Source of the DNA: Methanobacteriota archaeon
GTDB taxonomy: Archaea > Thermoplasmatota > Poseidoniia > Poseidoniales > Poseidoniaceae
DNA length: 64,000 nucleotides
Reading direction: 5' to 3'
Assembly: GCA_002722135.1 (NCBI GenBank)
Contig: PBKJ01000008.1
Coordinates: 30,290 to 94,289, forward strand
The notes below the pieces were generated by a model. The model did no database searches. It worked only from the letters and a program-made list of their open reading frames with translations, and had not been told where the DNA came from. A program made the position numbers and the translations under genes. Of this stretch, positions 11,105-38,946 are shown piece by piece (the stretch's first letter is position 1; each line of letters opens with the position of its first letter).

Positions 11105-11219
11105 GTCTCCACTCGTCCCGCGACGCATGGTTTGCGCTCGTCAAGTGGCCTTTGAACGCTCGTGTTCACCCGGCCTGAATCAACCAATGCTTGATGAGGG
11201 TTCAGCAGAACCAGACCAC

Positions 11220-14200: not shown

Positions 14201-16805
14201 GCCGGATGCATGCCCCACCGTGCCCGGCACGTCCACGGAAGCCAACCGTCTGGGTTGCCCAGACGGTGACGGTGACGGTTGGGCCGACGTGGACGACGCT
14301 TTCCCCTTCGAATCCACGCAGTGGAACGACACGGACATGGACGGCTACGGGGACAACGCGATGGGGGCGAATCCCGACGCTTGTCCCTCCACGGCAGGCA
14401 CCTCAACCAACGACCGCCTTGGGTGCGCGGACAGCGACGGAGACGGCTATTCGGACCCAGACGCCGGATGGACCACCGCGCAAGGGGCGGACGAATGGCC
14501 CTCCGACGCCACCCAATGGGTGGACGCTGACGCCGACGGTTACGGGGACAATCCGGCCGGAACGATGGGTGACGCCTGTCCAGGCGTGACGGGCGGCTCG
14601 TCGGTGGATCGTTACGGTTGCCCAGACGCAGACGGCGACGGGTACTCGGACGCCGACGGCAGTTGGACCGTCCTCAACGGTGCCGACGCCTTCCCAAGCG
14701 ACGCTTCTCGCTGGGCGGACAGCGATGGCGACGGCTACGACGACACCATCGATGACGCCTGTCCCAACGCTGCGGGCACGTCTTCACTGGACCGCCAAGG
14801 GTGCCCCGACCGAGACAGCGACGGCTGGTCGGACCCGGACGGGGTGTGGACCGTCGCTGATGGCGCGGATGCCTTTGTGATGGACGGCACCCAGTGGGCC
14901 GACCAGGACGGTGACGGATACGGCGACAACAGCACCGGCACCTTGGCCGATGCCTGCCCGACACAGGCCGGCTCCTCGTGGCAAAACGGCACCCTTGGTT
15001 GCCCAGACTCGGACGGTGACGGTTGGGCCGACGCCGAAGATCAGGCTCCCAACGACGGCACGCAGTGGGTGGACACCGACGGAGACGGATACTTCGACAA
15101 CTCCGGGGGAACCATGCCAGATGCATGCCCGAACGTTCAGGGCAATTCCACGGCGGCCAACCGATACGGATGTCCGGACACCGACGGTGACGGCTGGGAC
15201 GACGCCATCGACGTGCTTCCGAACCTGCCCTCGCAGTGGGCTGATCAAGACGGTGACGGATACGGCGACAACGCCACGGGTCCGCAACATGATGCGTGTC
15301 CCGGAGAAGCCGGCACCTCTACCGTTGACCGCTTTGGCTGCCCCGACGCGGACAACGACGGTGTCTCAGACCTCGGTGACGCCTTCCCTGACGACCCGAG
15401 CCGCACTGCGGACGCTGACGGCGACGGCATCGACGACCCAAGCGATGGGTGCCCTGCCTTGGCGGGCACGTCAACCAGCCCCGTGACCGGATGCCCGGAC
15501 ACGGACGGAGACGGCGTGGCCGATGCTCAGCCCGGTGTCGACGGCATCGGTGAAGTGCGCATCGACCAAGGTGCCGATCCTTTCCCCAACGACCCGACAC
15601 AATCGGCCGATTCGGACGGCGACGGCTACGGCAACAACGCCTCGGGCACCGAAGGCGACGCCTGTCCAAGCGTGGCAGGGAATTCGACCTTCGACCGATT
15701 CGGCTGTCCTGATTCAGACGGTGACGGCGCCTCGGACGAAGGAGATGAATTCCCGAACGACCCCTCCCAGATCGGTGACACCGACAACGACGGCTACGGC
15801 GATCTCGCGTCGGGTGAACAACCCGATGCTTGTCCGGGCACAGCAGGAACGTCCACGCTCGACCGCTTCGGTTGTCCGGACAGCGACGGCGACGGCCAAA
15901 GCGACCTCAACGACCCTTGGCCAAGCGATGGAGCCGTGTGGTCGGATGGGGACGGTGACGGCTACGCTGACCAAGGTGGAACGTCGGTTTCAGACGATTG
16001 CCCGTCGGTGGCAGGAACCTCCACGCACTCGAGTGCACGGGGTTGTGAAGACCGGGATGAAGACGGCTGGTCGGATGACGAAGACGCCTTCCCAGACCTT
16101 TCCACACAACAGGTGGACAGCGACGGTGACGGATACGGTGACAACAACAGCATCGGTGCCGAGTCGCCGGACCATTGGCCGCAGGATGCCTCACGTAACG
16201 TGGCGGAAGCGACCCTCGAATGCCAGCTGGTCGATCCAGAGGTCGATTTGGCGGTGGGGCCAAAGTTCGCCTTCACGTGCACCGTCACCCACAGCATGGA
16301 CGTCCCCGTTACGGCCCGTGTCACGTGGGACGGCGGCTCGGACTTGTTCGGTGGCGCTCGCTCACAAACCGTCGTCATCGCACCCGAGGCGGACAACGCC
16401 ACGCTGTGGTTCCAAACCGAGGTGGCACGCATGGTGCCCATCGATTTGGTCATCACCGTGCTCGAACCAGGCGGCAGCGTCGCCATGGACGAAGTCACGC
16501 TGAAGGTGAACGTGGTCGACAGTCGCTTGTTCGAGGTGGACGAACCGACGCGAATGGAATGGACCGACATGTCATGGTGGGTGGACGACGAACGTGGACA
16601 GGTGGCCCTCGGCCAGGTGCTCTTGATCGTCCTCCTGCTCGGCTTGTTGGTGCAAGGCCGTCGGCGACGAACGCGGTGGGAAGAGGAACGAGAGGCCCTC
16701 GCCATGGCGCTGGTGGAACGTCGACGAACGGCACCACCGATGTCCTCGACACCGCCCCCACCGCAGGGCATCCCGAGCCTGCAGCAGCGACCGCCAAACC
16801 CCTGA
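11220..16805 (+). CDS. Secreted, membrane-anchored S8 subtilase (Kp43-like) with PPC-like domain and long thrombospondin type-3 repeat stalk
   Basis: Signal peptide; triad VADTGLD / GHGTHVAG / GGTSMATP; dozens of DxDGDG and DACP/GCPD repeats; C-terminal TM helix plus RRRR. Confidence 0.93.
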   Translation: MTRRAAHALFFSALMLIQITAPLAAGTPTNGPERVLDTDVDLTLLDAFGMQPSGDLAEGWFAPTEAGHVNLVHRTSALVAPSDWASWTGEQGLLDGWFVLGTTWPVPTPWEGELAEAGIACGSFLPPAAFHCEVNGLLPNDLEALGVTGMQRLAPSDRVREGLLESLYGQDEPVLASAMLAGERLPETLPHGVEVLSHSGRFADFLLSSEGLSTLAHEPALEWVEPRPWFVNFNDEARHIMNVTGVSSTSSMGATSTGWTGLDGSGVIVTVADTGLDNGVNNSNMHPDFADHIVDVVSFGVPSGTCSYYSLPTCNDGAADEWSGHGTHVAGSVLGDGTHSNGAIQGAAPEARLYFQAIETEATISGTTDGYLLGIPNNLYDLFEPAYDNGSRVHTNSWGSAVNGQYTTSSAQADASAQILWDMAILFAAGNEGTDGNSDGEVDLDSMSSPGTAKNVITVGATENDRSSVTSTWGGWWPGDYPTNPVKDDRHADNIDGMAAFSSRGPTDDSRLKPDVSAPGAWILSTKSRDTTSVGWGAYNTSYTYMGGTSMATPLTAGATALLIQHLDDNLGHSQPSSALVKAILAASSTDMAGQYSSSTNGAGETAPNDHEGWGRVDMWTAVNASFVDNESVSTNDERGWSFNVPNGADDFRVMLAWTDPASTPAASTNLVNDLDLAVKDPSGTWTNLSNDEDNLRGLTFTSPAQGTWEVHVIGTSVPQGGPQMFAMTLSENWTLTNLTQDADLDGVEDDDDDCPNDYGRSTVDRVGCPDTDNDGYSNQDANWTLANGADAFPAEPTQWADSDYDGYGDNAVGFQPDACTSVAGNSTQDRFGCIDSDGDGWSDPVGGYTVESGGDACDDVLGTSWRDRNGCTDEDGDGASDPDPTGASSSNGSAWGVTEGADAFLGDDTQWVDTDGDGYGDNPAPATDPDGCPTQFGDSTADRLGCPDTDGDTYSDPDSGFTAAHGADAFPNEASQWADQDGDGYGDNATGTQPDACPTVPGTSTEANRLGCPDGDGDGWADVDDAFPFESTQWNDTDMDGYGDNAMGANPDACPSTAGTSTNDRLGCADSDGDGYSDPDAGWTTAQGADEWPSDATQWVDADADGYGDNPAGTMGDACPGVTGGSSVDRYGCPDADGDGYSDADGSWTVLNGADAFPSDASRWADSDGDGYDDTIDDACPNAAGTSSLDRQGCPDRDSDGWSDPDGVWTVADGADAFVMDGTQWADQDGDGYGDNSTGTLADACPTQAGSSWQNGTLGCPDSDGDGWADAEDQAPNDGTQWVDTDGDGYFDNSGGTMPDACPNVQGNSTAANRYGCPDTDGDGWDDAIDVLPNLPSQWADQDGDGYGDNATGPQHDACPGEAGTSTVDRFGCPDADNDGVSDLGDAFPDDPSRTADADGDGIDDPSDGCPALAGTSTSPVTGCPDTDGDGVADAQPGVDGIGEVRIDQGADPFPNDPTQSADSDGDGYGNNASGTEGDACPSVAGNSTFDRFGCPDSDGDGASDEGDEFPNDPSQIGDTDNDGYGDLASGEQPDACPGTAGTSTLDRFGCPDSDGDGQSDLNDPWPSDGAVWSDGDGDGYADQGGTSVSDDCPSVAGTSTHSSARGCEDRDEDGWSDDEDAFPDLSTQQVDSDGDGYGDNNSIGAESPDHWPQDASRNVAEATLECQLVDPEVDLAVGPKFAFTCTVTHSMDVPVTARVTWDGGSDLFGGARSQTVVIAPEADNATLWFQTEVARMVPIDLVITVLEPGGSVAMDEVTLKVNVVDSRLFEVDEPTRMEWTDMSWWVDDERGQVALGQVLLIVLLLGLLVQGRRRRTRWEEEREALAMALVERRRTAPPMSSTPPPPQGIPSLQQRPPNP
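13440..16190 (+). repeat. Degenerate coding tandem repeats (TSP3-like Ca2+-binding units)
   Basis: Recurrent DAFP..QWxDxDGDGYGDN..DACP..G.S..DR.GCPDxDGDG units; bounds approximate. Confidence 0.85.
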
Positions 16806-18446: not shown

Positions 18447-19232
18447 TCACGACATGTTGCGGGTGGTTTTGCACCCCACGCCCCAGTCTGGGTTGAGCTG
18501 CATGGCCGCTCGCGTCGCATCGAGCACGGTGTCCTCTGGCGTCTGAGGAGGAGCGCGGCCTGGGGCTAAGGCGACGCACATCAGCATCCCGTCCACCTCC
18601 ATCCAACTCAGGTGCACGACAGCGCCGTTGTGGACGTAGCGATCACCCTCCGCCACGATGTGACGTGGGTTCAGATGCATCCCCAAACCCAGCGCCTTCT
18701 GCACGGCTTCTTTCGTCACCCATGCACGGAGGGCTGACGCTGGCTTGCCCTGGAAGGAGGCACGCTCTTCGGCGGAGGCAAACATGTCCCATGCACCCTC
18801 GGCGATGGCTCGGTCAAGCGGTTCTGCATCGACCCCAATGCTCCATCCTGTATCGACCAAACCGACGACGGCTTGCCCAGCGCTGTGGCCAATGGACACA
18901 CCCGGCAAGGGAGCTTGCCGCCAGAGGCCAGGCCGCCAGCGGAGGTAGGGGGCACGGTGCTCATCGCGCACCACGTCCAGTTCGTCCGTGCGGCCAAGTG
19001 AGGCGCGCTCCTTCCACCACGCTTCGACGGCGTTGGCCAGCAAAAGGCGCCCACCAAGATGCTCCCTTCGACGCTTGTCGGTTTTGAACGTCAGCCACTC
19101 GGTCGAGTCCACCAAAGGCGGTAACGGGTCATCGACCCCTGGAAGGCGCTCGGGGAGCGAGGAGAGGTGGACCATGTGCTCTGGGGCATCGAAGCCGGAC
19201 CACTCCGGCACGACCCTTCGCATCTGCATCAC
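18447..19232 (-). CDS. 4'-phosphopantetheinyl transferase (Sfp-type)
   Basis: SIGHS, IGVDAE, WVTKEAVQKALG motifs; start overlaps the PKS stop. Confidence 0.9.
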   Translation of the reverse strand: MMQMRRVVPEWSGFDAPEHMVHLSSLPERLPGVDDPLPPLVDSTEWLTFKTDKRRREHLGGRLLLANAVEAWWKERASLGRTDELDVVRDEHRAPYLRWRPGLWRQAPLPGVSIGHSAGQAVVGLVDTGWSIGVDAEPLDRAIAEGAWDMFASAEERASFQGKPASALRAWVTKEAVQKALGLGMHLNPRHIVAEGDRYVHNGAVVHLSWMEVDGMLMCVALAPGRAPPQTPEDTVLDATRAAMQLNPDWGVGCKTTRNMS

Positions 19233-22200
19233 CGGTCGATGGACACCGCGAGGTCCTCTGGAACCGGAGCCATGCCCTTCAAGCGCAGCCCTCGGAGGGC
19301 CAACACCGGGTCGTCCTCCTCACCGAAGATGACCACATCGTGCACGGTGATGCCACCGTCTTCCTTTCCAGTGCACAGCGAGCGCATGCGGAGGGATTCA
19401 CCCTCATCGGGCACCCGAAGCACCGTGGACCATTCAATCCCGACCGGCAGGCTGCTGAGCCCTTCAGACTCCATCGCAACCAAGCCGGCGTTCTGGAAGC
19501 CGGCTTCGATGAGCATCGGCAAGGCCTCAAGCAGCACAGCCTCGCCTTCAGCCTCGATGGCGAACTGATCCTTCGCAGGCAGTTGGTGGCGCATCAGCGC
19601 CAATCCATCCACGCCGAGGTGTTCGTCTTGCTGTACACCTCGGAGCACGCCACCGTGGCTCTGGAAACGCGGACCGTGGAAGTATCGCAGGTAGATGAAG
19701 GACGGGTGATGCAGGAGATCGCCGGGCGCTGGGGCCAGACCCGTGTCGGGCATGTCCGCAAGTTCGTTGGCGAAAAAGGCACTCAGGTCCTCGGCTTGTT
19801 CGACAAGGCGCACAACGGCCGTGTGGTGTTCGCGTTCACCGAACACCTCGCCGCTCGATGACACAAGGTCGGACACGAGCCGACACTGGACGTCATGGGC
19901 CCCATCGCTTGCATCGCTCAGCGAGGCTTCAACACGCACCGTCATGCTCTCCCGCATGATCTTCACGGGCAAGCCAAAGGTCACGTCCCTGAATCCGGCC
20001 AAGGCCGTCCCGGGCTTGAGGAGGAGCGCGTTTTGCGCAAACATCTCGAGCGCCATCACTCCGGGGTGGTACGGCACGCCGTCGATGGCGTGATCCACAA
20101 GGAAGGGATGCATTTCAGTTGAAAGCGTAGTCTGCGTGATGATGCGGGCGTCCTCATCGAAGGCGACGACCTTGTCGATGAAGGGGAAGCGCTGAGGATC
20201 GGCGATCAGTCCCGCCATGCCCGGAGGCAGCTTGAGCGGCGCTTCGCGGAAGGCGCTGAAGGTGTCCATCGCACCGAGGCTGCCGCAACCGAGCACGCGG
20301 CGCTTTCCACCGGCCAGAGCCTCGTCCACAAACAGGTCCACGCCGACGTCGACCGGCAGCGTCTCGATGCCAGCAGCCTCAAACACCGCTTCAATGGAGC
20401 CTCGGGTCGCCATGCCGACATCGCGCCAACCGGTCCACCCGATGGCCACGGCGCGGCATGCACCGCTTGCCGTCAGGCGAGCCATTTCGGCATCCAGGAC
20501 TGAATTGGCCGCGGCGTAATCCGTTTGACCACCGTTTCCGAAGCGCCCGGCGACCGAGGTGAAGCAGGCTGCAAAGGCTGGATGACGCACACCAGAAGCC
20601 TCCACGGCGCCCATCAGCGCGGACCATCCGTCGACCTTGACCCGCACCACGCGATCGAAGGCTTCGTGGGTCTTGTCGCCCACAAGTTTGCTCTCCTCGA
20701 GCCCGGCACCATGGACGACGCCGGTGATGGCGTGGCCAAGGTTCGCGCCAAGTTTGGTCAGCGCTTTCCCGTCCATGACGTCCACGGCATGGTATTGGGC
20801 CAGATTGCCCGTGGCCTGAATGCTGGCGAGGGTCTGTTGTACGTCACGTGAACGCATCATGCGGTCCCAAGCACGGTTCCACTCCACCATGGTGACCTTA
20901 CCCGAAGAGGACGCCTCAATCATGCGCTCGCGGAGCGCCATCTTCTCAGATTCGAGGGTCGCATCGTCATGGTCGAGCCAAGCCTCGGTGACCTCCATCA
21001 GCGGGGTTCGACCCAGGAGATGGAAGGAAGCACCGGCATCCTTCGATGCAGCAGCCACGCCAATGACGGCGGCCGCCGTGACGCCAGATCCACCGCCAGA
21101 GACCAGCCACACGTCGGTTTCTTCCAGCGGAGTTCGCTCCTCAACCAAATCCTCGGCGAAACAGACCAGCGTCCAGCGCTCGCCAGCACGGTCGAGGCCA
21201 ATTTCGACTTCGCCTCCAACGTTGAGCAAGTCGTCCACGAGGCGCTCTGCCGTGGCCTCGGCATCCATCAACATGTCCGGATGCACGTCATAGGCACGGC
21301 AGCGCAAGGCAGGCCGCTCATGGGCGTAGGATTTGGTCACGCCCGCAGCCGCGGCTTGAAGCGCGTTGAAGCGGTCCCCGCGGTTGCCGTGGCGCCCGTC
21401 CATGGCGCTCACCGAAGCCACGATGCCAGACTCGAGGGCTCCGAGTTTCGAATCGAGGGATTTCAAGAGTCCGAACCACGCTTGACCGGACAACACCACC
21501 TGCTGGCTTGGTCCGGATTCTTCAGACCACGCCATGCTGGCCAGCCGCAACGGAGCCAAGTGAATCATGCCCGCCAGTGGGCCTTCTCCGATGGCGTCCA
21601 CAAAGGCGTCCATTTGCTCGGAGGAGGCTGGATCGACCCGGTGGACGATGCGTTCACCCTCCTCTTGGATGCGATGTGATTTCGCTCCGGGCTCGAGCCC
21701 AATGTGCACGACATCGAAGCCCTTCTCGGAAAGGACGTGGGCGACCGCGGCGGAAACGCCCCAATCGTCCTCCGTGACGAGAATACGGCCGGTGAGGCTC
21801 AGAGGAGCCTCTTGACCTGAGCAGGGTTCAACCTCGACCTGCCAGCGCCTGTTGCCAACCGCCACCATCGAGGAAGGAGCATCGACGGCTGATGGCGCCT
21901 CGGCGGGTGCCGTCGACGTTGGGGCAGTCGTGCTTGCTTCGCCCCCACCGGAGGAATACTTGGCGACGTAGGCCACGAAATGATTGAGCGTTGGGTGGTC
22001 GGACAGCAGGAAATCTTCGTCCACTGGGAGGTCGAAGATGGCGCGAACGTCGGCCATGATCTCGGCCTGCTTGACCGTGTCAATGCCCAATTCGCCTTCG
22101 AGGTCCTGGTCGAGTTCGATGAAATCCTCTGGGTACCCGGTGTGCTTGACCACGACCTCGACCAAACGTGCTGCAATGCTCCCGTCGTCGCCGGATGGGG

Positions 22201-25200
22201 GTGCAGGAGTTGGGGCAGGGGCAGCCGCAGGAGCGGTTTCTGGCGCAGGTGCTGCAGCCGGCGCAGGGCCAGGTGCCGGCGCTGGAGGTGCAGACCCGCT
22301 TTCTCCGCCCGTCATCCGCTGGATGTAACCCACCATGTGGTTGAGCGTCGGGCGGTCTGAGAGCAGGAAGTCCTCGTCAACGGGCAGCGAGAAGCGCGCT
22401 CGGATGTCGGCCATGATCTCGGCCTGCTTGACCGTGTCAATGCCCAATTCGCCTTCGAGGTCCTGGTCCATTTCGATGAAGTCGGCCGGGTAGCCGGTGT
22501 GCTCCACCACGACCGCCACCACGGTGTCCACGAGGTCACCTGCATCGGCCGTGGGAACGGCAGCGGCTGGTGCTGGGGTTGGGGAAGGTGCCGAAGTCGC
22601 CGCAGGTGCAGCCTCGACCGTTGCCGCAGGAGCGGGCTCTGGAGCCGGAGCAGGACGGTCCACAGCCGCTTCGGCTGCTGGGGCCGGAGCGCCGCCTTGC
22701 ATGCGCGTCAGGTACGCCAGCATGTGGTTGAGCGTCGGATGGTCGGAGAGCACGAAGTCCTCATCAACGGGCAGCGAGAACCGGTCCCGAAGCGCCGCCA
22801 TGATTTCGGCTTGCTTGACCGTGTCAATGCCAAGTTCACCCTCGAGGTCCTGGTCCATTTCGATGAACTCTGCAGGGTAGCCTGTGTGTTCGACGACCAC
22901 TTCAATCATGGCAGCAGCGACCTCTTCGTCGCTTGCGTTCATGGTAACCTGGGCTGTCGGGGCGGCGGTGGCTGCAGGCTCGGGGGCGGCTTGCGGTGCA
23001 GGCTCAGGAGCAGGTGGGGCTTCCGGTTCCTCGACCACGCCTTCGAAGGGAGCGCTTGGACCCCATGCCTCGCCTTGCACCCCGCCATGGAGGTTGCTTT
23101 CCCCGTCGACATACGCGACCAAGGTGTTGTTCTTGATGCGCAGCACGACGTCGTTCGTGCCTGCAAGACGCCGGTTCCATGCCAGCACGGCCCGACCGTT
23201 CACGCGCTCACCTTCGACCGGCCAGCGTCGCACCAGCGAGAGGGCAATTTGTGAACCAAATCCAGCACCGAAGCGGATGCCGTACTCGATGCCGTCAACG
23301 TCTCCACCCTTGCTGAGGTTGAGGTTGCCCAGCTCTGGATCCACTTCTTTGTGGTTGGCAATGGGTGGGAAGCGGCGGTGATGGAGGCCATGAATCATGC
23401 TCGCATCTTCAATGCCGACGCCCATCGGATGCCCCGTGAAGCCCTTGGTGTTGGCAATCAGGATCTTGTCCGTGCTTTCGCCAAAGGTCGTTCTGAGCGC
23501 TTTGACCTCCGACTGAGCCGAACCACCGCGTGCGGGTGTGTAGGTTTCATGCGAGAAGAAGACCGTGTTCGGTGCCATCGTATGCCGATCAAGACCCCAC
23601 GTGCGCTCCATCTGACCGACGAATCCATCGACGGTTTGCGCCACGTGTTCAACGTCGAGACGGGTCCCGTGGAAGGCGGAATTCGCCATTCGGGTCCCGA
23701 GCAATTCAGCATAGGGCTGAACGCCACGCTCCGCCGCTTCGGCGTTTCGCTCCACCACGAAGGCGGCGGCTCCCATGCCGAGGATCAAGCCGTTGCGTCG
23801 CCGGTCGAACGGCAGGGCTGCTTCTTCGATGACGTTGCTTGAGGATGCGGCCCCAGAGGCGGCAAAACCAGCTCCGATCCACGACCAGAGTTCTGGACTG
23901 GTCACGTTGTCTGAAGAGATGATGACCACGCGGTCCGCGCGGTCGTTGGCCAACCAATCCTCTGCGATGCTGAACGCCGCCGTTGCGGAGGCACAGGCGA
24001 CGTTGATGGTGGAGTTGGGCCCTCGGATACCGGTATGCTGGGCGAACTGGGCATGGCCCATGTTGAGCACTTGGAAGAGGAAACGACGGTCGAAGCGACC
24101 GTCGGCATCTGCACCGTTGTTTCGTGCATGTCCGAACGAGGCCGTGGTGCCTGGGAAACATGAGGCAAACACCACACCGGTCCGCTCACGCTGGTGTTGT
24201 GGAACTTGCCAGCCACGGATGAGCCGAAGACCACCTTTGCCCACCTGCTCCTCGGGCGTGAGCGGGATGGCGGCGTCCCGCAAAGCGAGCAAGCCGGACG
24301 CCACGGCCAGTTGCGTGGTGATGTCCCATGCCAGCACGGCCTTCGGATCCACGCCGAATTCCTCAGCGAGATCGAAGGCGTGAGCCACACCGGCCAGTTG
24401 AGGGATGTCGCCGAAGGTTTCTGCGGGAGACATGTCCACTGAACCGTCACGGCCCTTGACGAGCCGCACGATGTTCCGATCGAGCAGCGCCTGCTTGTAG
24501 GCGTCCGACACTTCTTCGATGCAGGTCTCGCCTCGCACCAAGCGCTCAAACACGTCCTCATCGAAGACGCGTTCTCCGCCGGGGAGGCCGAGGGACACAC
24601 CGGTGATCACGTAGGGGTTGGCTCTCCGGTCGGCCATCGCATCGTGCACGACGGTTGCACCCGTGACCGCCTCCACTGGGCGACGGGTTGCGGGCGCAGC
24701 GGGGCTCCAGCTCGACGGCGGAGCGCGGACCGCTCGGACCAATTCGGCCGGCGTCCGTGCGGACGCGATGTCCACTTCGCCGTCCAGCGGGGCCTCTGCC
24801 CGAAGGCGTTGCACGACGGAAGCCACCTTGGCATCGTCCAGACCGAGTCCTGTCCGTAGGTCCACGGCTCCGCGGCAGAAGCGGGCAGGGTAGCCGCACA
24901 CCGCAGCAAGACGATCACCGACGTAGGCGGCAATGGCCTCAGCAGGGTCGGAAGGCGTCGCGGCGGGAGCAACGACGGCCTGCGCGGCGACGGGCGTACC
25001 GCCGCTGGAAGGCAACGGACGAGCGCGGGTGCGCAGGTCCTCGTGTTCCTGTGACGAGCGAGCGGGTTGCAAGGGCGACGAGGACCACGCTTCCAACGGT
25101 CCGGCGCGGAAGGCTTCGGTGAGCGCCGGGCTTGCGCCGTCAGGCATCGTGGCGACACGCCCGGCCAGAGCCAACATGCCCAATGCGGAAAGGAAGCTGG

Positions 25201-28054
25201 CGATGCCGCCTTGCTTCGGATGGTTGGTCATCACCGCAACGTGCGGCTTGCCTTCGAGGATTTGCGTGGCGAACACCGTCAGCGCTCGCTTTGGACCGAC
25301 CTCGACGAAGGCACCCGCACCGGCAGCCGCCATGGTCTCGATTTGAGCGGTCCACTCGACCGATGAGGCCATTTGTGGTGCGAGCTTTTCCAGCACGGCC
25401 GCCTTGGCGTTGTCGCCTTCCATCGCGTAGAAGGTCCCGTCAACGTTGGCCGTGATGGGGATGGTGGGCCACTGGAGATCGAGTTCCTCGAGGAAGGCGC
25501 GGAGCGGTGCGTTCGCAGGTGCGACGATTTTGGAATGGAACGCGTGGGAGGTTTGCAGAACGGTGCACGGCATGCTTTCTGCTTCAAACGCGGCCATAGC
25601 GGCCTTCACCGGCTCGGTTTCGCCGGCGATGACGGTCATCTTCGGCGAGTTCTTGTTGGCGGAGATGACGTAACCGTCCGTGGCCTCAAGGATGCGCTCA
25701 ACGTCAGCGAGCGGTGCGCTGACCGAAGCCATCAGGCCCTGATCGTCAATTTCAACCGAGCCCATTTCCGTTCCACGGGCAGCGGCCGCGCGAAGGGCGC
25801 TGTCCATGTCCATGATGCCGGCCGACATCAGGGCCGCGTATTCGCCAAGCGAATGGCCTGCGACCATGTCGGGTTTGAGGCCGTGATCGTTGAGGGCACG
25901 CTCGATGGCCAGATCGGCCGTCAACATGGCAGGTTGGGTGTATTCGGTCCGCTTGAGCTTCGCTTCAGCGTCCTGGATTTCTTCCTTGGACAAGTTGCTT
26001 CGCAGCACAAAGGAAGAGAGCGTCTCGCCGTCCAGCACATCAACCATGGTCTCGTCAGCCAAACGCCAGACGTCCTGAACCGCCGTGAAGCGCTGCCAGA
26101 GGTCGTGGGTCATCCCAACGTATTGGCTGCCTTGACCGGGGTACATGTGGGCGACTTTGGCTTGGGGGGGCATGGCGGGTTGGTCGGTGATCATCACGCC
26201 TTGGGCCCCAAGGAAGCCCCAACGGGCGGGATCGGACAGGGATGAAGCGGCGAGGCCCTTTCGCTTTTCGAATTCGGCCCACGACGTGGCCACGACCGCG
26301 AGCCGAACGGCCGCGTTCACGTCGAAACCTGTGGACCACGTCGGGAAGACGGCGGACAGCCGATGCCCCCGAGGGTCCTCGTCGAAGGTCGGACCGTCGA
26401 CGCTGAGTGCCGCGAGGCGAGCCGCGACGGCTTCGACGCTGTCGCCAGAGAGCAGCAGGACGCCACCTTCGACGGACTTGAGGGCCGCGTGGCCCAGCGA
26501 AGGGGTGGCGGTGGCGTCGAGGATGGACGCCGCTTCGGGCGCCGAAGGCGCGCCAGCGTAGGCGTCCCAACGGGACGACCACGTCTCGCCCATGGCCGCG
26601 TGAACCTCGGGGTCGTAGGCCTCGAGGGCGACGTGGAAGTTGGTGCCGCCAAAACCGAAGGCGCTGACGCCAGCACGGCGCGGATGGCCCGCAGGTTGAG
26701 GCCAAGCCATGGGCTCCGTGGGCACAAAGAAGGGATTGGTCGACCAGTCCACCGTTGGGTTCGGTGTTTCAAAGCCCGCACTCGGCGGAATGGTCGCATG
26801 GTGCAGGGCCATCGTGACTTTGAGCAGCCCCGCCATGCCGGCGGCTGCTTTGAGGTGGCCAATTTGGCTCTTGATGGAGCCCACAGCAACGTTGTCGCCG
26901 GCCTCGATGTCCGTCCACAAGGTGCCGAGGGTGGACAATTCAGTGGCGTCGCCGACCTTGGTGGACGTCCCGTGGGCCTCGACCAATTCCACAGAGGACG
27001 GGGCATAACCCGCCTGGTTGTAGGCACGAGCAATCGCCTGAATCTGGCCGCGCTGCGACGGGGCAGTGATGCCCTTGCCACGGCCATCGGATGAACCGCC
27101 GATGCCACGGATGACCGCGAAGACTTCGTCGCCGTCTCGGACCGCATCGCTCAGGCGCTTGAGCACCATGGCTCCTGCACCCTCGCCCATGACGAAGCCG
27201 TTGGCACGCGCATCGAACGGCGTGGAGTGGCTCGGAGACAGCGCCCCAATGGCGCTGAACTTGGCGTAGGTGGCAGGGTCCATCGTCCGGTCCGAAGCAC
27301 CGCAGATCATCGCGTCGACTTGGCGCGCGTGCAGCAAACGGCAGGCGTCGAGCAAGGCCGCAAGCGAGGACGCACATGCGGCGTCCATGGCATGGTTGGG
27401 CCCCTGCAGATCGAGCAGGTTGGCGACGCGGCCTGACACGACGTTGGCAAGCTCACCCGGCATGGTGTCCTCGGTGATTTTCGGAGCGCCTTCGACCATG
27501 GCGTCCACGAAAGCGTCGCTCGCGGAGGCGGCAAGGCCTGCTTCGATGGCCAAGGCTCGGTTGTGTTCTGCCCAGACCCGCTGGTTGGATTCGTTGCGGT
27601 TTTCACCGCCGAGGGCGTTGGCAAAGACCACGCCAACTCGGCTGCGGTCGAGCGGGCGGCCTTCGTCGCCGTAACCTGCGTGCTCCAAGGCTGACGCAGC
27701 CACTTCGACCGCCCACAGCTGACAAGGATCGATCTGAGCCAGGGTTCCCGGCGGTTGCCGCCATCGGCGCCAATCGAATTCGAAGCCTTCGACGAAGGCG
27801 CCGATTTTCGCATAGGTGCGGTTTTGCTCAACGTTTCCAGGTGAACCCTCGGCCCAGAAGTGTTCGATTGGGCCCGGCCATCGGCCCTCGGGCAGGTCAC
27901 GGATGCTGACGTGTGCGTCGATGATGTTCTGCCAAAACGTCGCGGCATCCGCTGCATCGGGCATCAGGGCCGAGCAACCGATGATGGCGATGGGTTCGAA
28001 GGGGCCCTGGTCGGTCCCGCCGACCTCTTTTCCGTCCGCTGTGGTGATCGTCAT
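19229..28054 (-). CDS. Type I polyketide/fatty-acid megasynthase (KS-AT-degenerate ACP-KS-ACP-ACP-ACP-KR-DH), PfaA/HglE-like
   Basis: KS1 DAACASS/EAHGTST/KSQIGH; AT PGQGSQ/GHSLGE/HAFHS; KS2 NVACAS/SHETYT/TKGFTGH; 3x LGIDTVKQAEI; KR VSGGGSG/VHGAG/YAAAN; DH HAIDGVPYHP/FHGPRFQ. Confidence 0.93.
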   Translation of the reverse strand: MTITTADGKEVGGTDQGPFEPIAIIGCSALMPDAADAATFWQNIIDAHVSIRDLPEGRWPGPIEHFWAEGSPGNVEQNRTYAKIGAFVEGFEFDWRRWRQPPGTLAQIDPCQLWAVEVAASALEHAGYGDEGRPLDRSRVGVVFANALGGENRNESNQRVWAEHNRALAIEAGLAASASDAFVDAMVEGAPKITEDTMPGELANVVSGRVANLLDLQGPNHAMDAACASSLAALLDACRLLHARQVDAMICGASDRTMDPATYAKFSAIGALSPSHSTPFDARANGFVMGEGAGAMVLKRLSDAVRDGDEVFAVIRGIGGSSDGRGKGITAPSQRGQIQAIARAYNQAGYAPSSVELVEAHGTSTKVGDATELSTLGTLWTDIEAGDNVAVGSIKSQIGHLKAAAGMAGLLKVTMALHHATIPPSAGFETPNPTVDWSTNPFFVPTEPMAWPQPAGHPRRAGVSAFGFGGTNFHVALEAYDPEVHAAMGETWSSRWDAYAGAPSAPEAASILDATATPSLGHAALKSVEGGVLLLSGDSVEAVAARLAALSVDGPTFDEDPRGHRLSAVFPTWSTGFDVNAAVRLAVVATSWAEFEKRKGLAASSLSDPARWGFLGAQGVMITDQPAMPPQAKVAHMYPGQGSQYVGMTHDLWQRFTAVQDVWRLADETMVDVLDGETLSSFVLRSNLSKEEIQDAEAKLKRTEYTQPAMLTADLAIERALNDHGLKPDMVAGHSLGEYAALMSAGIMDMDSALRAAAARGTEMGSVEIDDQGLMASVSAPLADVERILEATDGYVISANKNSPKMTVIAGETEPVKAAMAAFEAESMPCTVLQTSHAFHSKIVAPANAPLRAFLEELDLQWPTIPITANVDGTFYAMEGDNAKAAVLEKLAPQMASSVEWTAQIETMAAAGAGAFVEVGPKRALTVFATQILEGKPHVAVMTNHPKQGGIASFLSALGMLALAGRVATMPDGASPALTEAFRAGPLEAWSSSPLQPARSSQEHEDLRTRARPLPSSGGTPVAAQAVVAPAATPSDPAEAIAAYVGDRLAAVCGYPARFCRGAVDLRTGLGLDDAKVASVVQRLRAEAPLDGEVDIASARTPAELVRAVRAPPSSWSPAAPATRRPVEAVTGATVVHDAMADRRANPYVITGVSLGLPGGERVFDEDVFERLVRGETCIEEVSDAYKQALLDRNIVRLVKGRDGSVDMSPAETFGDIPQLAGVAHAFDLAEEFGVDPKAVLAWDITTQLAVASGLLALRDAAIPLTPEEQVGKGGLRLIRGWQVPQHQRERTGVVFASCFPGTTASFGHARNNGADADGRFDRRFLFQVLNMGHAQFAQHTGIRGPNSTINVACASATAAFSIAEDWLANDRADRVVIISSDNVTSPELWSWIGAGFAASGAASSSNVIEEAALPFDRRRNGLILGMGAAAFVVERNAEAAERGVQPYAELLGTRMANSAFHGTRLDVEHVAQTVDGFVGQMERTWGLDRHTMAPNTVFFSHETYTPARGGSAQSEVKALRTTFGESTDKILIANTKGFTGHPMGVGIEDASMIHGLHHRRFPPIANHKEVDPELGNLNLSKGGDVDGIEYGIRFGAGFGSQIALSLVRRWPVEGERVNGRAVLAWNRRLAGTNDVVLRIKNNTLVAYVDGESNLHGGVQGEAWGPSAPFEGVVEEPEAPPAPEPAPQAAPEPAATAAPTAQVTMNASDEEVAAAMIEVVVEHTGYPAEFIEMDQDLEGELGIDTVKQAEIMAALRDRFSLPVDEDFVLSDHPTLNHMLAYLTRMQGGAPAPAAEAAVDRPAPAPEPAPAATVEAAPAATSAPSPTPAPAAAVPTADAGDLVDTVVAVVVEHTGYPADFIEMDQDLEGELGIDTVKQAEIMADIRARFSLPVDEDFLLSDRPTLNHMVGYIQRMTGGESGSAPPAPAPGPAPAAAPAPETAPAAAPAPTPAPPSGDDGSIAARLVEVVVKHTGYPEDFIELDQDLEGELGIDTVKQAEIMADVRAIFDLPVDEDFLLSDHPTLNHFVAYVAKYSSGGGEASTTAPTSTAPAEAPSAVDAPSSMVAVGNRRWQVEVEPCSGQEAPLSLTGRILVTEDDWGVSAAVAHVLSEKGFDVVHIGLEPGAKSHRIQEEGERIVHRVDPASSEQMDAFVDAIGEGPLAGMIHLAPLRLASMAWSEESGPSQQVVLSGQAWFGLLKSLDSKLGALESGIVASVSAMDGRHGNRGDRFNALQAAAAGVTKSYAHERPALRCRAYDVHPDMLMDAEATAERLVDDLLNVGGEVEIGLDRAGERWTLVCFAEDLVEERTPLEETDVWLVSGGGSGVTAAAVIGVAAASKDAGASFHLLGRTPLMEVTEAWLDHDDATLESEKMALRERMIEASSSGKVTMVEWNRAWDRMMRSRDVQQTLASIQATGNLAQYHAVDVMDGKALTKLGANLGHAITGVVHGAGLEESKLVGDKTHEAFDRVVRVKVDGWSALMGAVEASGVRHPAFAACFTSVAGRFGNGGQTDYAAANSVLDAEMARLTASGACRAVAIGWTGWRDVGMATRGSIEAVFEAAGIETLPVDVGVDLFVDEALAGGKRRVLGCGSLGAMDTFSAFREAPLKLPPGMAGLIADPQRFPFIDKVVAFDEDARIITQTTLSTEMHPFLVDHAIDGVPYHPGVMALEMFAQNALLLKPGTALAGFRDVTFGLPVKIMRESMTVRVEASLSDASDGAHDVQCRLVSDLVSSSGEVFGEREHHTAVVRLVEQAEDLSAFFANELADMPDTGLAPAPGDLLHHPSFIYLRYFHGPRFQSHGGVLRGVQQDEHLGVDGLALMRHQLPAKDQFAIEAEGEAVLLEALPMLIEAGFQNAGLVAMESEGLSSLPVGIEWSTVLRVPDEGESLRMRSLCTGKEDGGITVHDVVIFGEEDDPVLALRGLRLKGMAPVPEDLAVSIDR
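22049..22468 (-). repeat. 63-nt identical direct repeat in ACP2 and ACP3 (22049-22111 and 22406-22468); near-identical third copy near 22800-22860
   Basis: gtcggccatgatctcggcctgcttgaccgtgtcaatgcccaattcgccttcgaggtcctggtc read twice. Confidence 0.9.
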
Positions 28055-28058
28055 GCCC

Positions 28059-28065
28059 TCACCTC
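28059..28065 (-). promoter_or_regulatory. Shine-Dalgarno GAGGTGA between fabI stop and PKS start
   Basis: Minus strand ...GAGTGAGGTGAGGGCATG. Confidence 0.7.
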
Positions 28066-28855
28066 ACTCCATGATGGTCTCCGGCACCATCGTGATCGAA
28101 TAGCCTGCATCAACGTGAATCACCTGCCCGGTGACCCCTGCCGAAAGCGGACTTGCCAACCACAAGGTGGTCCCTGCCACGTCCGATTGCGTGACGTTTC
28201 TTCGAAGCGGCGCGTTGGACGCCACGTGATTCAGGATGTTGTCGAACCCGGGGATGCCCGAGGCAGCGATCGTTCGGATTGGACCTGAGGAAATCGCGTT
28301 CACGCGGTGGCCCTCCGGCCCAAGGTGACAGGCCAATTCCCGCGTCCAGCACTCAAGGGCGGCCTTGGCCATGCTCATGATGCCGTAGGACGGCACATAT
28401 CGGGTGGAGGCAGCATAGGTCAGGGTGATCGTCGATGAACCCTCGGACAGGTATGGGAGTGCGTGCTTGAGGCACCGCTGCAGGCTGTTGGCGGAGATGG
28501 TCATCGCGGTGTTGATGTCGGCATCCTCGACGAAGAGGATCGGGCGATCGAAGCAGGTTCGCGGCGCGAAGCCGATGGCGTGGACCAAGATGTCGGCCTT
28601 CTTGCCCGGGTGTTCTGCGGCGAAGGCGTCGAAGAATTCCTTGGTGGAGGCATCTTCAGCGACATCCAAGGGGTAGAAGCCACCGATGGAAGGAAGTTGG
28701 TCCTTCAGTTTGAAGATCCGGCTCATGAAGCGCTTCTGATAGCCGAGGTACAGCGTGCAGCCTGCCGCGGCCAGTTGTTGGCAAATGGCCCACGCGATGG
28801 AATCCTCGCTGGCCACACCGAAGACGAAGGCTGTCTTTCCCTTGAGGTCCAGCAT
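28064..28855 (-). CDS. fabI: Enoyl-ACP reductase (FabI-type SDR)
   Basis: GVASEDSIAWAI, LVHAIGFAP, Y-x6-K (YGIMSMAK), RVNAISSGPIRT, VTGQVIHVDAG. Confidence 0.92.
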   Translation of the reverse strand: MLDLKGKTAFVFGVASEDSIAWAICQQLAAAGCTLYLGYQKRFMSRIFKLKDQLPSIGGFYPLDVAEDASTKEFFDAFAAEHPGKKADILVHAIGFAPRTCFDRPILFVEDADINTAMTISANSLQRCLKHALPYLSEGSSTITLTYAASTRYVPSYGIMSMAKAALECWTRELACHLGPEGHRVNAISSGPIRTIAASGIPGFDNILNHVASNAPLRRNVTQSDVAGTTLWLASPLSAGVTGQVIHVDAGYSITMVPETIME

Positions 28856-28956
28856 ACGCACACCCTCCATCGGTGTAGCCGGGCACACCGGCCTTTGACC
28901 ATTCCCCCTGAAGAGGCCCGGAAAATGCGGGGACGTGACCCGAACAGGACCTTCCG

Positions 28957-30081
28957 TCACAGTCCGTCAAAATCAAACTCGTCAGGGCCGTCAAGATCGT
29001 CAAACATGCCGTCAAACTCGTCGACTGGGGCGGCGGCGGCAACGGGAGCAGCAGCAACGGGCACGTCCGGCTCGTCGAGTTCGGTCACTTCCTCGAGTTC
29101 AGGGCCACTGGAACGGCGCACCAAACGGCCGACCACGAAGATGAGCAGGAAGAACACGACCACGCCCCCGCCAATGGCGGCATAGAGCTGAATCTGGTCT
29201 TGACTGAGTTCCTCAAGGCCACCTCCCACCAACGCGGCGTTGGTGGTGGCGGGCTGAACGACCACGGTGACGGTGGATTGCATCGGCTCGGCCGTGGCAT
29301 CGTTGGTGCTCGTCGCTTCAAAGACCACTTGGACGCGGACCTCTTCGGTCACCTCAGACGGCGTGCGCAGCACAATGGTGCGCTCGGCTGAGGTCCCCTC
29401 GACCATGACGGTCTCGGCAACAAAACTGCCCTCGGGGAAGCTGAAACCGGCGCCTTCCAGTTCGGCAAGGTTGGCGATGTTCACCTCGATTTTGTCTTCG
29501 GCGTTGCCGTCGTTGCCCATGGTGAAGCCGATGCTGACCTCCTCGCTGACTTCGAGGTTCCGGGTGGAACGGTCGGTGAGGGTCAAGTCAACCTGGCCGA
29601 ACGTTGCAATCGTCAACTCACCGGAGTAGGTCGCAGATTGGTTCAGCTGGTCCACTGGGAGCACCATCACCGAGGTAATGGAAGCGGTGATGTCGAAGTC
29701 AAGGGAGAGGTCGGCCTCGATCCTCGGCGAGCCAGAGAAGGTCGCCTCAAACTCCTCTTCTGCACCTGCGGCGAGGGTGAATTCGTCCTCCGAAAGCGAC
29801 ATGTCCACACGAGGGTCATCGTCCTGCCACTCGTAATCCACCGAGATGGTGGATTCCAGTTGGCCTGAATTTGACACGGTGCACGTGATGACCACATCCT
29901 CGTTTTCTGAGGGCGCGACGTTGAGCTCTGGGTCGCCGTCACAGTCGATTTGGACGCCGATGCCGATTTGGGCCTGGGCGCTCGGGGCCGCTACGAGCAG
30001 CAGGGAAGCCAGCAGCAACCCAACGGTCCACACAGCTCGTGAGGGGCGGCTCATTGGTTGCGGGTGATGCGACTCCGCCAT
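28957..30081 (-). CDS. Secreted Ig-like protein with C-terminal TM anchor and acidic tail (choice-of-anchor T-like)
   Basis: Signal peptide, acidic beta-rich repeats (TVSNSG, NDGNAED), TM helix followed by RR. Confidence 0.65.
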   Translation of the reverse strand: MAESHHPQPMSRPSRAVWTVGLLLASLLLVAAPSAQAQIGIGVQIDCDGDPELNVAPSENEDVVITCTVSNSGQLESTISVDYEWQDDDPRVDMSLSEDEFTLAAGAEEEFEATFSGSPRIEADLSLDFDITASITSVMVLPVDQLNQSATYSGELTIATFGQVDLTLTDRSTRNLEVSEEVSIGFTMGNDGNAEDKIEVNIANLAELEGAGFSFPEGSFVAETVMVEGTSAERTIVLRTPSEVTEEVRVQVVFEATSTNDATAEPMQSTVTVVVQPATTNAALVGGGLEELSQDQIQLYAAIGGGVVVFFLLIFVVGRLVRRSSGPELEEVTELDEPDVPVAAAPVAAAAPVDEFDGMFDDLDGPDEFDFDGL

Positions 30082-38906: not shown

Positions 38907-38946
38907 GACCAACAAGCCGACGAAGTCACGTCATGAGCCTTCCCCG

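What the first reader, a model, noticed from the sequence alone, without database searches (positions are those of the whole stretch)
23230..24620. Second, atypical ketosynthase inside the megasynthase
Seen: after the AT and a dead ACP there is a second KS with a Cys-His-His set (NVACAS at 23993, SHETYT at 23549, TKGFTGH). It has HETYT in place of HGTxT, a FabF-like PFDRRRNG motif and no AT of its own. Established: PfaA has one KS, and chain-length-factor domains lack the catalytic Cys. Inference: KS2 is active in a distinct step, such as priming, elongation over a different chain-length range, or condensing two acyl chains into a long ketone or branched lipid.
Basis: partly seen in the sequence, partly recalled or inferred. 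Interest (0 to 1): 0.75.

Follow-up and report, generated by a model that had tools for sequence, protein, structure and literature searches.

The report
Second active ketosynthase in archaeal megasynthase
A marine archaeon's giant lipid-building enzyme really does carry a second, apparently working chain-extending domain, which proves to be the hallmark of a widespread but uncharacterised enzyme family where it had been labelled an inactive helper.

Summary
Window 19229-28054 (-) encodes one 2941-aa protein: KS1-AT-(ACP-like)-KS2-ACPx3-KR-DH. KS2 (aa 1141-1620, window 23195-24634) has a FabF-like fold. It keeps Cys1354, His1502, Lys1537, His1542 and Phe1599, and reads HETYT where FabF has HGTST.

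These residues, including the Glu, are invariant in 374 of 374 full-length KS2 domains collected. KS1 is intact too. KS2 is as conserved as KS1 and AT among relatives.

The organism is a Poseidoniales (Marine Group II) archaeon. Apart from a probable HMG-CoA synthase, this protein holds the only KS and ACP domains found in its 92%-complete genome. A FabI-like enoyl reductase gene lies directly upstream and a PPTase gene directly downstream.

The architecture is not new. It matches the "Type R" secondary lipid synthase of Shulse and Allen (2011): KS-MAT-CLF-ACP(3-6)-KR plus a downstream PPTase, product unknown. Their "CLF" is this KS2, and it fails the defining CLF feature because the Cys is kept.

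Most likely KS2 is a second active condensing domain sharing the elongation cycles with KS1, as the two KS domains of PUFA synthases do. Its exact step is untested.

In passing: the family's ACPs carry Thr where the phosphopantetheine Ser normally sits.

The parts
19229..28054 (-). Megasynthase gene, 2941 aa: KS1-AT-ACP-like-KS2-ACPx3-KR-DH
   Evidence: ORF list and translation. Pfam domains. TIGR02813 PfaA scores 867.8 bits, below its 1010.1 cut-off.
26600..27997 (-). KS1 (aa 20-485), PfaA/PKS-type ketosynthase with Cys227, His361, Lys395, His400
   Evidence: PF00109 and PF02801. Conservation in the family: Cys 316/316, His361 315/316, Lys 315/316, His400 316/316.
25178..26146 (-). The only acyltransferase domain (aa 637-959), FabD-like, with GHSLGE and HAFH motifs
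   Evidence: PF00698 at 7.2e-35, one stretch. TIGR00128 fabD at 2e-58. Motif positions. Reading HAFH as malonyl-specific is recalled knowledge.
24719..24949 (-). Degenerate ACP-like domain (aa ~1036-1112) with Asp1074 at the carrier position
   Evidence: hhalign against the protein's own ACPs gives prob 95%, E 2e-8. Alignment with E. coli AcpP. Only 36% mean identity among 8 relatives, and the carrier position is variable. Not detected by Pfam PP-binding.
23195..24634 (-). KS2 (aa 1141-1620), divergent FabF-fold ketosynthase: Cys1354, His1502-Glu1503 (HETYT), Lys1537, His1542, Phe1599 (AGFGSQ)
   Evidence: The catalytic residues and Glu are invariant in 374 of 374 full-length domains.
21953..22942 (-). 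Three tandem ACP domains (aa 1705-1786, 1834-1915, 1953-2034), each with LGIDTVKQ: Thr at the usual Ser position
   Evidence: PF00550 in 3 stretches. Alignment with E. coli AcpP puts DT on D35-S36. Family-wide, Thr occurs in 1066 of 1095 ACP copies.
20420..20854 (-). Ketoreductase domain (aa 2401-2545), with the YAAAN motif
   Evidence: PF08659 at 1.8e-23. Motif at aa 2512-2518.
19232..20197 (-). PKS-type dehydratase domain (aa ~2620-2941) with HxxxGxxxxP
   Evidence: PF21089 at 1.4e-8. HAIDGVPYHP at aa 2655-2664.
28064..28960 (-). FabI-like enoyl-ACP reductase gene, directly upstream on the same strand
   Evidence: PF13561 at 2.9e-70. Best NCBIfam hits are all FabI (227 bits, below the 391 cut-off). 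Present directly upstream in 69 of 69 evaluable Poseidoniales loci and in 6 of 8 more distant relatives.
18447..19232 (-). 4'-phosphopantetheinyl transferase gene, directly downstream, overlapping the stop by 4 bases
   Evidence: PF01648 at 3.5e-9. A homologue lies directly downstream in 60 of 60 evaluable loci. It is fused to the C-terminus in distant family members.

Best explanation
KS2 is a genuine second, catalytically competent ketosynthase domain. It sits inside an iterative PfaA-like type I synthase of the 'Type R' family.

The protein supplies KS1, one malonyl-type AT, three ACPs, KR and DH. The neighbouring genes supply a FabI-like enoyl reductase and the PPTase. Together these form a complete set for making a reduced (fatty) acyl chain. 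It is the only ACP-dependent system found in this Marine Group II archaeon.

Both KS domains use the same AT and the same ACPs. They most likely divide the condensation cycles between them, as KS-A and KS-C/B do in PUFA synthases. One would handle initiation or short chains, the other later cycles.

Shown here: the fold, the intact active-site residues, strong purifying selection, a family-wide 1:1 pairing with KS1, and operon conservation.

Inferred: that KS2 condenses at all, which cycles it takes, and that the product is a saturated fatty acyl chain.

My sub-odds: KS2 is an active condensing domain, about 0.8. Given that, chain-length or structure partition about 0.45, dedicated priming about 0.3, other about 0.25.
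For: Fold and residues:
- FabF is the best match by sequence and by structure.
- Cys1354, His1502, Lys1537, His1542 and Phe1599 align on FabF Cys163, His303, Lys335, His340 and Phe400 (the mature FabF numbering is recalled).

Conservation:
- These residues are invariant in 374 of 374 full-length KS2 domains: 128 MGII-like, 134 representatives at 50% identity, and 112 from a Bradymonadales-centred search.
- KS1 is equally intact, with Cys in 316 of 316.
- Mean identity to 8 relatives is KS2 65%, KS1 70%, AT 68%, against 37-43% for linkers.
- Mean patristic distances are 1.61 for KS2 and 1.67 for KS1, correlated at r=0.77. KS2 is monophyletic with support 1.0.

Context:
- In the own genome the only KS matches are KS1 and KS2.
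- The only PP-binding matches are the three ACPs.
- No FabA/FabZ was found.
- FabI is upstream in 69 of 69 evaluable loci and the PPTase downstream in 60 of 60.
- In distant members an NMO-type ER is fused at the N-terminus and a PPTase at the C-terminus. This ties ER and PPTase functionally to the core.
- ACP arrays lie after KS2 in most members but before it in some Bradymonadales members. That fits an iterative system in which ACPs serve both KS domains.

Precedent: PUFA synthases use two KS domains differentially by chain length (PMC11962503, abstract).

Expression: contigs from RNA libraries of 2 studies cover KS2, including a 779-base piece with 1 mismatch over both catalytic codons. This is weak evidence, because DNA carry-over is not excluded.
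Against: - There is no functional data for any member. Shulse and Allen list the Type R product as uncharacterised, and ten literature searches found nothing later.
- The C-terminal half of KS2 is very divergent: PF02801 scores only 16.7 bits, below its cut-off.
- The invariant Glu after the first His is unexplained and could signal different chemistry.
- The AF2 model has low-confidence stretches near the active-site loops (residues 254-282 and 367-369 of the domain). Active-site geometry was therefore not checked.
- Marine Group II genomes also encode a complete archaeal isoprenoid lipid pathway (PMC6461757 passage). A primary fatty-acid role is therefore not required.
- FabI is not adjacent in 2 of 8 more distant relatives.
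- The genome is 92% complete, so missing type II genes cannot be called absent.
- The 374 domains come from three overlapping searches and are not independent samples.
Confidence: 0.6

Rival explanations
1. KS2 is the dedicated initiation enzyme. It would make the primer by decarboxylating malonyl-ACP to acetyl-ACP, or by taking acetyl- or another acyl-CoA directly onto Cys1354 (as FabH and FabY do). It would perform only the first condensation, and KS1 would do all later cycles.
For: - The single AT is FabD-like (TIGR00128 at 2e-58) and carries the HAFH motif (malonyl specificity is recalled). No acetyl-loading domain is evident.
- No FabH-type enzyme is linked to the operon. The only ACP_syn_III_C hit in the genome is a 392-aa ORF on another contig. 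The same model also rings in three archaeal control genomes, so this ORF is probably the mevalonate-pathway HMG-CoA synthase. That was not checked.
- The segment around the KS2 Cys weakly matches the FabH active-site model PF08545 (8.2e-6). The same weak match recurs in distant members.
Against: - There is no direct evidence.
- Canonical decarboxylating primers (KSQ, CLF) have Gln in place of Cys, whereas KS2 keeps Cys in 374 of 374.
- In PUFA synthases both KS domains accept C2-ACP (PMC11962503 abstract), so a dedicated primer is not required.
- This reading overlaps with the best explanation and differs only in how narrow the role of KS2 is.
Confidence: 0.22
2. KS2 is a chain-length-factor-like partner. 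It would pair with KS1 in an intramolecular KS-CLF-type heterodimer and mainly shape the acyl pocket or set chain length, without itself condensing.
For: - Shulse and Allen annotated this position as CLF in Type R (KS-MAT-CLF-ACP(3-6)-KR).
- KS1 and KS2 occur 1:1 in the same polypeptide in 316 of 374 proteins with a full KS2. The other 58 are shorter or split records.
- All KS-fold proteins dimerise (established knowledge).
Against: - The defining CLF feature, loss of the catalytic Cys, is not met. Cys, both His and Lys are invariant in 374 of 374. Such conservation is hard to explain for a non-catalytic partner.
- KS1 and KS2 are separated by about 650 residues (AT plus an ACP-like domain). 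They are not adjacent as in PfaC or type II systems.
- Pairing as a heterodimer would not by itself exclude catalysis.
Confidence: 0.08
3. KS2 performs a non-canonical reaction. Examples are off-loading or transacylation of the finished chain (no thioesterase domain is present), or a non-decarboxylative head-to-head condensation of two acyl chains, with the invariant Glu1503 acting as a base.
For: - The megasynthase has no TE domain.
- Glu after the first catalytic His is invariant in 374 of 374 domains and is absent from KS1 (Gly in 315 of 316) and from E. coli FabF and FabB.
- Glu bases are used by non-decarboxylative thiolase-fold enzymes such as HMG-CoA synthase and OleA (recalled).
- There is a generic sub-threshold hit to the AmcF 'acyltransferase subunit' model (6.4e-25).
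Against: - The full decarboxylative set (two His plus Lys) is retained. KS-like transacylases and non-decarboxylative enzymes typically lose or replace it (established knowledge, recalled).
- The orientation of Glu1503 could not be examined.
- A hotdog thioesterase gene (38533-39456) and PlsC-type acyltransferases exist elsewhere for release.
- There are no ole-type partner genes in the operon.
Confidence: 0.07

Closest known systems
'Type R' secondary lipid synthase (Shulse and Allen 2011, PMC3098273; passages read)
   Same: The domain order matches: KS-MAT-second KS-like domain-ACP(3-6)-KR in one pfaA homologue, followed by a PPTase gene. Here the order is KS1-AT-KS2-ACPx3-KR-DH with a PPTase directly downstream. 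A Roseiflexus protein shares the KS2 domain (P0375, E 2.9e-166 to a Bradymonadaceae KS2), and Roseiflexus is a named Type R host.
   Different: The paper calls the second domain CLF and does not mention its cysteine. Here it keeps the full catalytic set. The paper lists bacterial hosts only, whereas this host is an archaeon. The FabI-like gene directly upstream and the C-terminal DH are not part of the published description. The product is unknown in both.
PUFA synthase (PfaA plus PfaC, or thraustochytrid subunits A/B)
   Same: KS1-AT, tandem ACPs, KR and PKS-type DH resemble PfaA: TIGR02813 is the best NCBIfam hit at 867.8 bits. The system has two KS domains, which in PUFA synthases are used differentially by chain length (PMC11962503 abstract).
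   Different: The score is below the PfaA cut-off of 1010.1. The second KS is in the same polypeptide, downstream of the AT, and has no CLF partner. No FabA-type DH/isomerase domains were found in the genome, so no route to cis double bonds is evident. The ER is FabI-type here, not PfaD-type.
FabF (KAS II) of type II fatty acid synthesis
   Same: FabF is the best sequence and structure match for KS2. It shares the Cys-His-His-Lys-Phe catalytic set.
   Different: Identity is only about 20-22%. TIGR03150 scores 136 bits against a cut-off of 494. KS2 reads HETYT and AGFGSQ where FabF reads HGTST and FGFGGTN. KS2 has several insertions, is embedded in a megasynthase, and is monophyletic on a long stem away from E. 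coli FabF and FabB.
Chain length factor (KS-beta) of type II PKS and PfaC
   Same: It is a KS-fold domain accompanying a canonical KS at 1:1.
   Different: CLFs lack the catalytic Cys (established knowledge), whereas KS2 keeps it in 374 of 374. KS2 is not adjacent to KS1.

Membership tests
Type R secondary lipid synthase (Shulse and Allen 2011) | Single pfaA homologue with order KS-MAT-(second KS-like domain)-tandem ACP(3-6)-KR | tested here: met
   Pfam gives KS 20-483, AT 637-959, second ketoacyl-synt stretch, 3 PP-binding and KR. The published definition was read.
Type R secondary lipid synthase (Shulse and Allen 2011) | Downstream gene encoding a PPTase | tested here: met
   Window 18447-19232 (-) matches PF01648 at 3.5e-9. 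A homologue lies directly downstream in 60 of 60 evaluable loci.
Type R secondary lipid synthase (Shulse and Allen 2011) | Homology to the proteins of the named Type R hosts | tested here: met
   Roseiflexus sp. and Oscillochloris proteins share the KS2 domain at E about 1e-166 with the same precomputed Pfam set. Koribacter, Solibacter and Elusimicrobium proteins were not seen by name.
Chain length factor (CLF / KS-beta) | Catalytic Cys lost (typically Gln) | tested here: not met
   Cys1354 is present and invariant in 374 of 374.
Chain length factor (CLF / KS-beta) | Forms a heterodimer with the adjacent active KS | not tested
   No complex prediction was run, because any two KS folds are expected to be modelled as a dimer. 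KS1 and KS2 are about 650 residues apart.
FabF / KAS II (TIGR03150 equivalog) | Score above the curated cut-off | tested here: not met
   136.3 bits against 493.75. None of the 21 NCBIfam hits reaches its cut-off.
FabF / KAS II (TIGR03150 equivalog) | Cys-His-His triad with Lys and gating Phe | tested here: met
   Alignment with E. coli FabF. Invariant in the family.
PfaA (TIGR02813 omega_3_PfaA) | Score above the curated cut-off and one KS per protein | tested here: not met
   867.8 bits against 1010.1. Two KS domains are present. The KS2 segment alone gives no TIGR02813 hit.
Complete fatty-acid-type synthase (KS, AT, ACP, KR, DH, ER, PPTase) | All seven activities encoded together | tested here: met
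   Domains. FabI-like gene. PPTase. Catalytic motifs GHSLG, YAAAN and HxxxGxxxxP are present. This is by sequence only; activity was not tested.

The most novel reading that the evidence does not exclude
The Type R family, including this gene, would be a self-contained type I fatty acid synthase. It would be the only fatty-acid source of Marine Group II and several other Thermoplasmatota and Asgard archaea.

Its hallmark KS2 (the invariant His-Glu variant) would perform a mechanistically distinct step. That step could be acyl-CoA-primed initiation or a non-canonical condensation. The chains would be carried on Thr-linked rather than Ser-linked phosphopantetheine, installed by the dedicated PPTase.

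If so, the bacterial-type lipid potential of these archaea would have an identifiable and unusual enzymatic basis.
Probability: 0.2. Interest if true: 0.8.

Novelty: new member of a known kind. Interest (0 to 1): 0.55.

Why it matters
Marine Group II archaea are among the most abundant planktonic archaea. [quoted passage not shown]

In this genome the megasynthase is the only KS- and ACP-containing system found. It is therefore the candidate source of any fatty acyl chains, and so bears on the 'lipid divide' question.

Showing that the domain labelled 'CLF' is an intact ketosynthase changes how the whole Type R family should be modelled. That family has 530 sequence clusters at E<=1e-30. It occurs in Bradymonadales, Chloroflexi, Acidobacteria, Asgard archaea and Thermoplasmatota. 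The family should be treated as a two-KS iterative synthase, which gives clear mutational targets.

The Thr-for-Ser carrier site, if real, would be an unusual post-translational chemistry worth testing.

Tried and rejected
Literature. Ten full-text searches were run. The terms combined Marine Group II, MGII, Poseidoniales, Asgard, Heimdallarchaeia and Bradymonadales with polyketide synthase, ketosynthase, fatty acid synthase and PUFA synthase. One search looked for Thr in place of Ser in carrier proteins.
- None found a paper on this megasynthase in archaea, on the function of KS2, or on Thr carrier sites.
- Only Shulse and Allen 2011 describes the architecture.
- Villanueva et al. 2017, cited as the source for the MGII fatty-acid genes, was not in the library and was not read.
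- No supplements were opened.

Other steps that led nowhere:
Organism names for distant members therefore come only.
- The search for related loci in genome contigs returned only Poseidoniales-like loci among its best 80 of 555. It gave no view of the distant bacterial members.
- The search for archaeal SSU rRNA in the genome found nothing. Taxonomy rests on record titles.
- The search of earlier findings returned nothing.
- The ESM Atlas look-up gave only generic KS clusters, some labelled diatom or Zoopagomycota. These are leads only and were not used.
- Complex prediction was not run. Any KS pair would probably be modelled as a dimer, so a pass would not separate KS1:KS2 from homodimers.

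Limits of what was done:
- A phylogeny against PfaC KS/CLF, type II KS/CLF and FabY could not be made, because no such sequences were obtainable. Only E. coli FabF and FabB served as outsiders.
- Alignment of the pre-KS2 linker across distant members was not meaningful.
- Acyl-pocket and Glu1503 geometry could not be inspected, because model coordinates are not exposed.
- In the RNA-library contigs, bins without cover are not evidence of anything.
Full report
**What is there**

The finding lies inside one open reading frame, window 19229-28054 on the minus strand, of 2941 residues. Pfam gives these domains:
- a ketosynthase at 20-483
- a single acyltransferase at 637-959
- a second ketoacyl-synt stretch
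- three PP-binding domains
- a KR at 2401-2545
- a PKS-type dehydratase N-domain at 2624-2723

I took residues 1101-1651 out as a separate query. This segment scored as follows:
- PF00109 at 3.5e-17. The C-terminal KS model PF02801 reached only 16.7 bits, below its cut-off.
- TIGR03150 fabF at 1.1e-39, with 136 bits against a cut-off of 494. None of its 21 NCBIfam hits reached a curated cut-off.
- FabF enzymes topped the solved structures (2gqd at 5.1e-24). SHETYTP aligned on HGTSTP and TKGFTGH on TKSMTGH.

An AlphaFold2 model of residues 1141-1620, built on an 11-sequence alignment (mean pLDDT 77.1, pTM 0.84), found E. coli FabF 1kas first (E 2.2e-29, TM 0.73/0.84, about 22% identity).

The Cys1354 codon is 23993-23995 and the His1502 codon is 23549-23551.

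**Is KS2 intact, and is that conserved?**

Aligned with E. coli FabF, KS2 has Cys1354, His1502, Lys1537, His1542 and Phe1599 at the positions of the FabF catalytic Cys, two His, Lys and gating Phe. It differs from FabF in three ways:
- it reads HETYT where FabF reads HGTST
- it reads AGFGSQ where FabF reads FGFGGTN
- it has several insertions

I collected 374 full-length KS2 domains from three searches:
- 128 Marine-Group-II-like proteins and loci
- 134 representatives of 50%-identity clusters
- 112 proteins from a search seeded with a Bradymonadaceae member

In all 374 the Cys, both His, the Lys, the Phe and the Glu after the first His are invariant. An earlier count on 91 domains gave the same result. 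These sets overlap in ancestry and are not independent.

KS1 is equally intact: Cys227 in 316 of 316, His361 in 315 of 316, Lys395 in 315 of 316 and His400 in 316 of 316.

Against eight relatives from other genera and families, mean identity is 65% for KS2, 70% for KS1 and 68% for AT. Linkers score 37-43% and the ACP-like segment 36%.

I built a FastTree (LG+gamma, midpoint root) of KS1 and KS2 from 74 proteins, with E. coli FabF and FabB added. The 74 were the window, 8 loci, the first 45 representatives and 20 random members of the third set; 242 of 316 proteins were left out. The tree shows:
- KS2 is monophyletic (support 1.0) on a long stem.
- KS1 is monophyletic (support 0.67).
- The two sets of pairwise distances correlate (r=0.77).
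- Mean distances are similar (1.67 for KS1, 1.61 for KS2).

KS2 is therefore an old, co-inherited domain under as much constraint as KS1. It is not a decaying duplicate.

**The 'dead ACP' and 'no AT of its own'**

Only one AT domain is present. Residues ~1036-1112 match the protein's own ACPs in a profile comparison (hhalign probability 95%, E 2e-8). They have Asp1074 at the carrier position.

**Whose gene, and what surrounds it**

Source names of near-identical proteins and loci say Candidatus Poseidoniales / Poseidoniaceae, that is, Marine Group II archaea. The window also encodes a Nop5-type protein. The genome has 1.94 Mb in 27 contigs and is 92% complete.

In this genome:
- The only matches to KS2 are KS2 itself and KS1.
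- The only PP-binding matches are the three ACPs of this protein.
- No FabA/FabZ was found.
- The only FabH-type C-domain hit is a 392-aa ORF on another contig. The same model also rings in three archaeal control genomes, so this ORF is probably HMG-CoA synthase. I did not check it.
- Three carboxyltransferases are present.
- Two PlsC-type acyltransferase matches are present.
- No PlsX or PlsY was found.

Directly upstream on the same strand is a FabI-like enoyl reductase (28064-28960). It matches PF13561 at 2.9e-70, and all its best NCBIfam hits are FabI at 227 bits, below cut-off. Directly downstream is a PPTase (18447-19232; PF01648 at 3.5e-9).

Among the 80 best Poseidoniales loci, a FabI homologue lies directly upstream in 69 of 69 evaluable. 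A PPTase homologue lies directly downstream in 60 of 60 evaluable. Among eight more distant relatives, FabI is adjacent in 6, and a same-strand 218-278-aa ORF follows in 8.

With GHSLG and HAFH in the AT, YAAAN in the KR and HxxxGxxxxP in the DH, the locus encodes a full set of fatty-acid-type activities.

**Distribution**
- KS2 was found in 33 of 41 genomes of the order, always together with KS1. In 31 of those 33 these two were the only KS matches.
- It was found in 106 of 301 genomes sampled across the phylum. It is near-universal in some families (f1 42/42, f10 9/9, f19 23/24, f29 10/10) and not found in others (f6 0/36, f16 0/35).
- Across 1.84 billion representative proteins there are 8765 hits at E<=1e-3 and 530 at E<=1e-30. 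Most of the best 150 are proteins of 2000-4000 residues with KS2 at about 1100-2600.
- Of ten distant members scanned with Pfam, seven are large multidomain proteins built as [NMO-type ER]-KS-AT-KS2-ACP-KR-DH-[PPTase]. Three are short records with only KS2.
- Named hosts include Bradymonadales (Lujinxingia, Persicimonas, Bradymonas, Microvenator), Myxococcota, Chloroflexi (Roseiflexus, Oscillochloris, Anaerolineae), Acidobacteria, Omnitrophica, Asgard archaea (Heimdallarchaeota) and Thermoplasmatota.
- The ACP array lies after KS2 in most members. It lies before KS2 in some Bradymonadales members and between KS1 and AT in a few others.
- Split forms on long contigs exist, for example P0191, P0034 and P0045.

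**Comparison with what is known**

Shulse and Allen (2011, PMC3098273; passages read) defined a 'Type R' secondary lipid synthase. It is one pfaA homologue with KS-MAT-CLF-ACP(3-6)-KR, followed by a PPTase gene. They found it in Koribacter, Solibacter, Elusimicrobium and Roseiflexus, with the product uncharacterised.

The present protein has that architecture and that downstream gene, and Roseiflexus proteins share KS2. So the second KS-like domain is not a new discovery. However, the paper labels it CLF and does not discuss its cysteine. By the defining criterion of a CLF, loss of the catalytic Cys, KS2 is not one.

It is also not a member of three other families:
- FabF, because its score is far below the cut-off.
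- PfaA, because TIGR02813 scores 867.8 bits against a cut-off of 1010.1.
- A canonical PUFA synthase, because no FabA-type domains were found.

[quoted passage not shown] Rinke et al. 2019 does not mention this synthase (passages). My ten searches found no description of it in archaea.

**How it most likely works**

Both KS domains are intact. There is one malonyl-type AT, a shared ACP array whose position relative to KS2 varies, KR and DH in cis, and ER and PPTase either adjacent or fused.

The simplest reading is an iterative type I synthase in which two active KS domains share the condensation cycles. PUFA synthases set the precedent: their two KS domains accept different acyl-ACP chain lengths (PMC11962503, abstract).

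A narrower version is that KS2 primes. Two things favour this: the lack of any acetyl-loading domain, and a weak FabH-like match around the KS2 Cys (PF08545 at 8.2e-6).

A CLF-like structural role is unlikely given the conservation. A non-canonical reaction cannot be excluded, because the invariant Glu1503 is unexplained. But the retained His-His-Lys set argues for ordinary decarboxylative condensation.

Contigs from RNA libraries of two studies cover the gene, including KS2. This is only weak evidence of expression.

**Verdict**

The gene is a new archaeal member of a known but uncharacterised family, with a corrected reading of its hallmark domain.

Noticed in passing
window 21953-22942 (-); ACP motifs at 22811-22834, 22424-22447, 22067-22090: All three ACP domains read LGIDTVKQ, with Thr where E. 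coli AcpP has the phosphopantetheine Ser36 (alignment). Across the family, 1066 of 1095 ACP copies in 367 proteins have Thr and 21 have Ser. The Ser cases cluster by lineage, for example both ACPs of L017 and of L019. This suggests Thr-linked phosphopantetheine and a co-adapted PPTase. One literature search found nothing on it.
   Followed up: partly
window 28957-30081 (-): The 374-aa gene just upstream of FabI has no Pfam match. It is a 'choice-of-anchor T' family protein (NF041740, 90.7 bits, above its cut-off of 70). A homologue is present in 63 of 80 Poseidoniales loci. It is probably a surface protein with no obvious link to lipid synthesis.
   Followed up: partly
window 32328-38174 (-) and 11064-16805 (+): Two very large neighbouring genes. 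One is a 1948-aa protein with no Pfam match, conserved upstream in 7 of 8 relatives. The other is a 1913-aa subtilase with a PPC domain, followed by an M28 peptidase. This fits the proteolytic lifestyle described for Marine Group II.
   Followed up: no
L022 (CAXRAI010000082.1): A contig whose KS2 region is 97% identical to the window's is filed under a MAG named Salinimicrobium sp., a bacterium. It is probably a mis-binned archaeal contig.
   Followed up: no
distant family members P0215, P0154, P0149, P0183: There are architectural variants in the family. P0215 (4041 aa) has three ketoacyl-synt stretches. Some members carry ACPs between KS1 and AT.
   Followed up: no
window 38533-39456 (+): A 307-aa hotdog (4HBT) thioesterase-like gene, YciA/PaaI-like at sub-threshold scores. 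It lies about 10 kb from the synthase and is a possible release enzyme. Its conservation with the operon was not examined.
   Followed up: no
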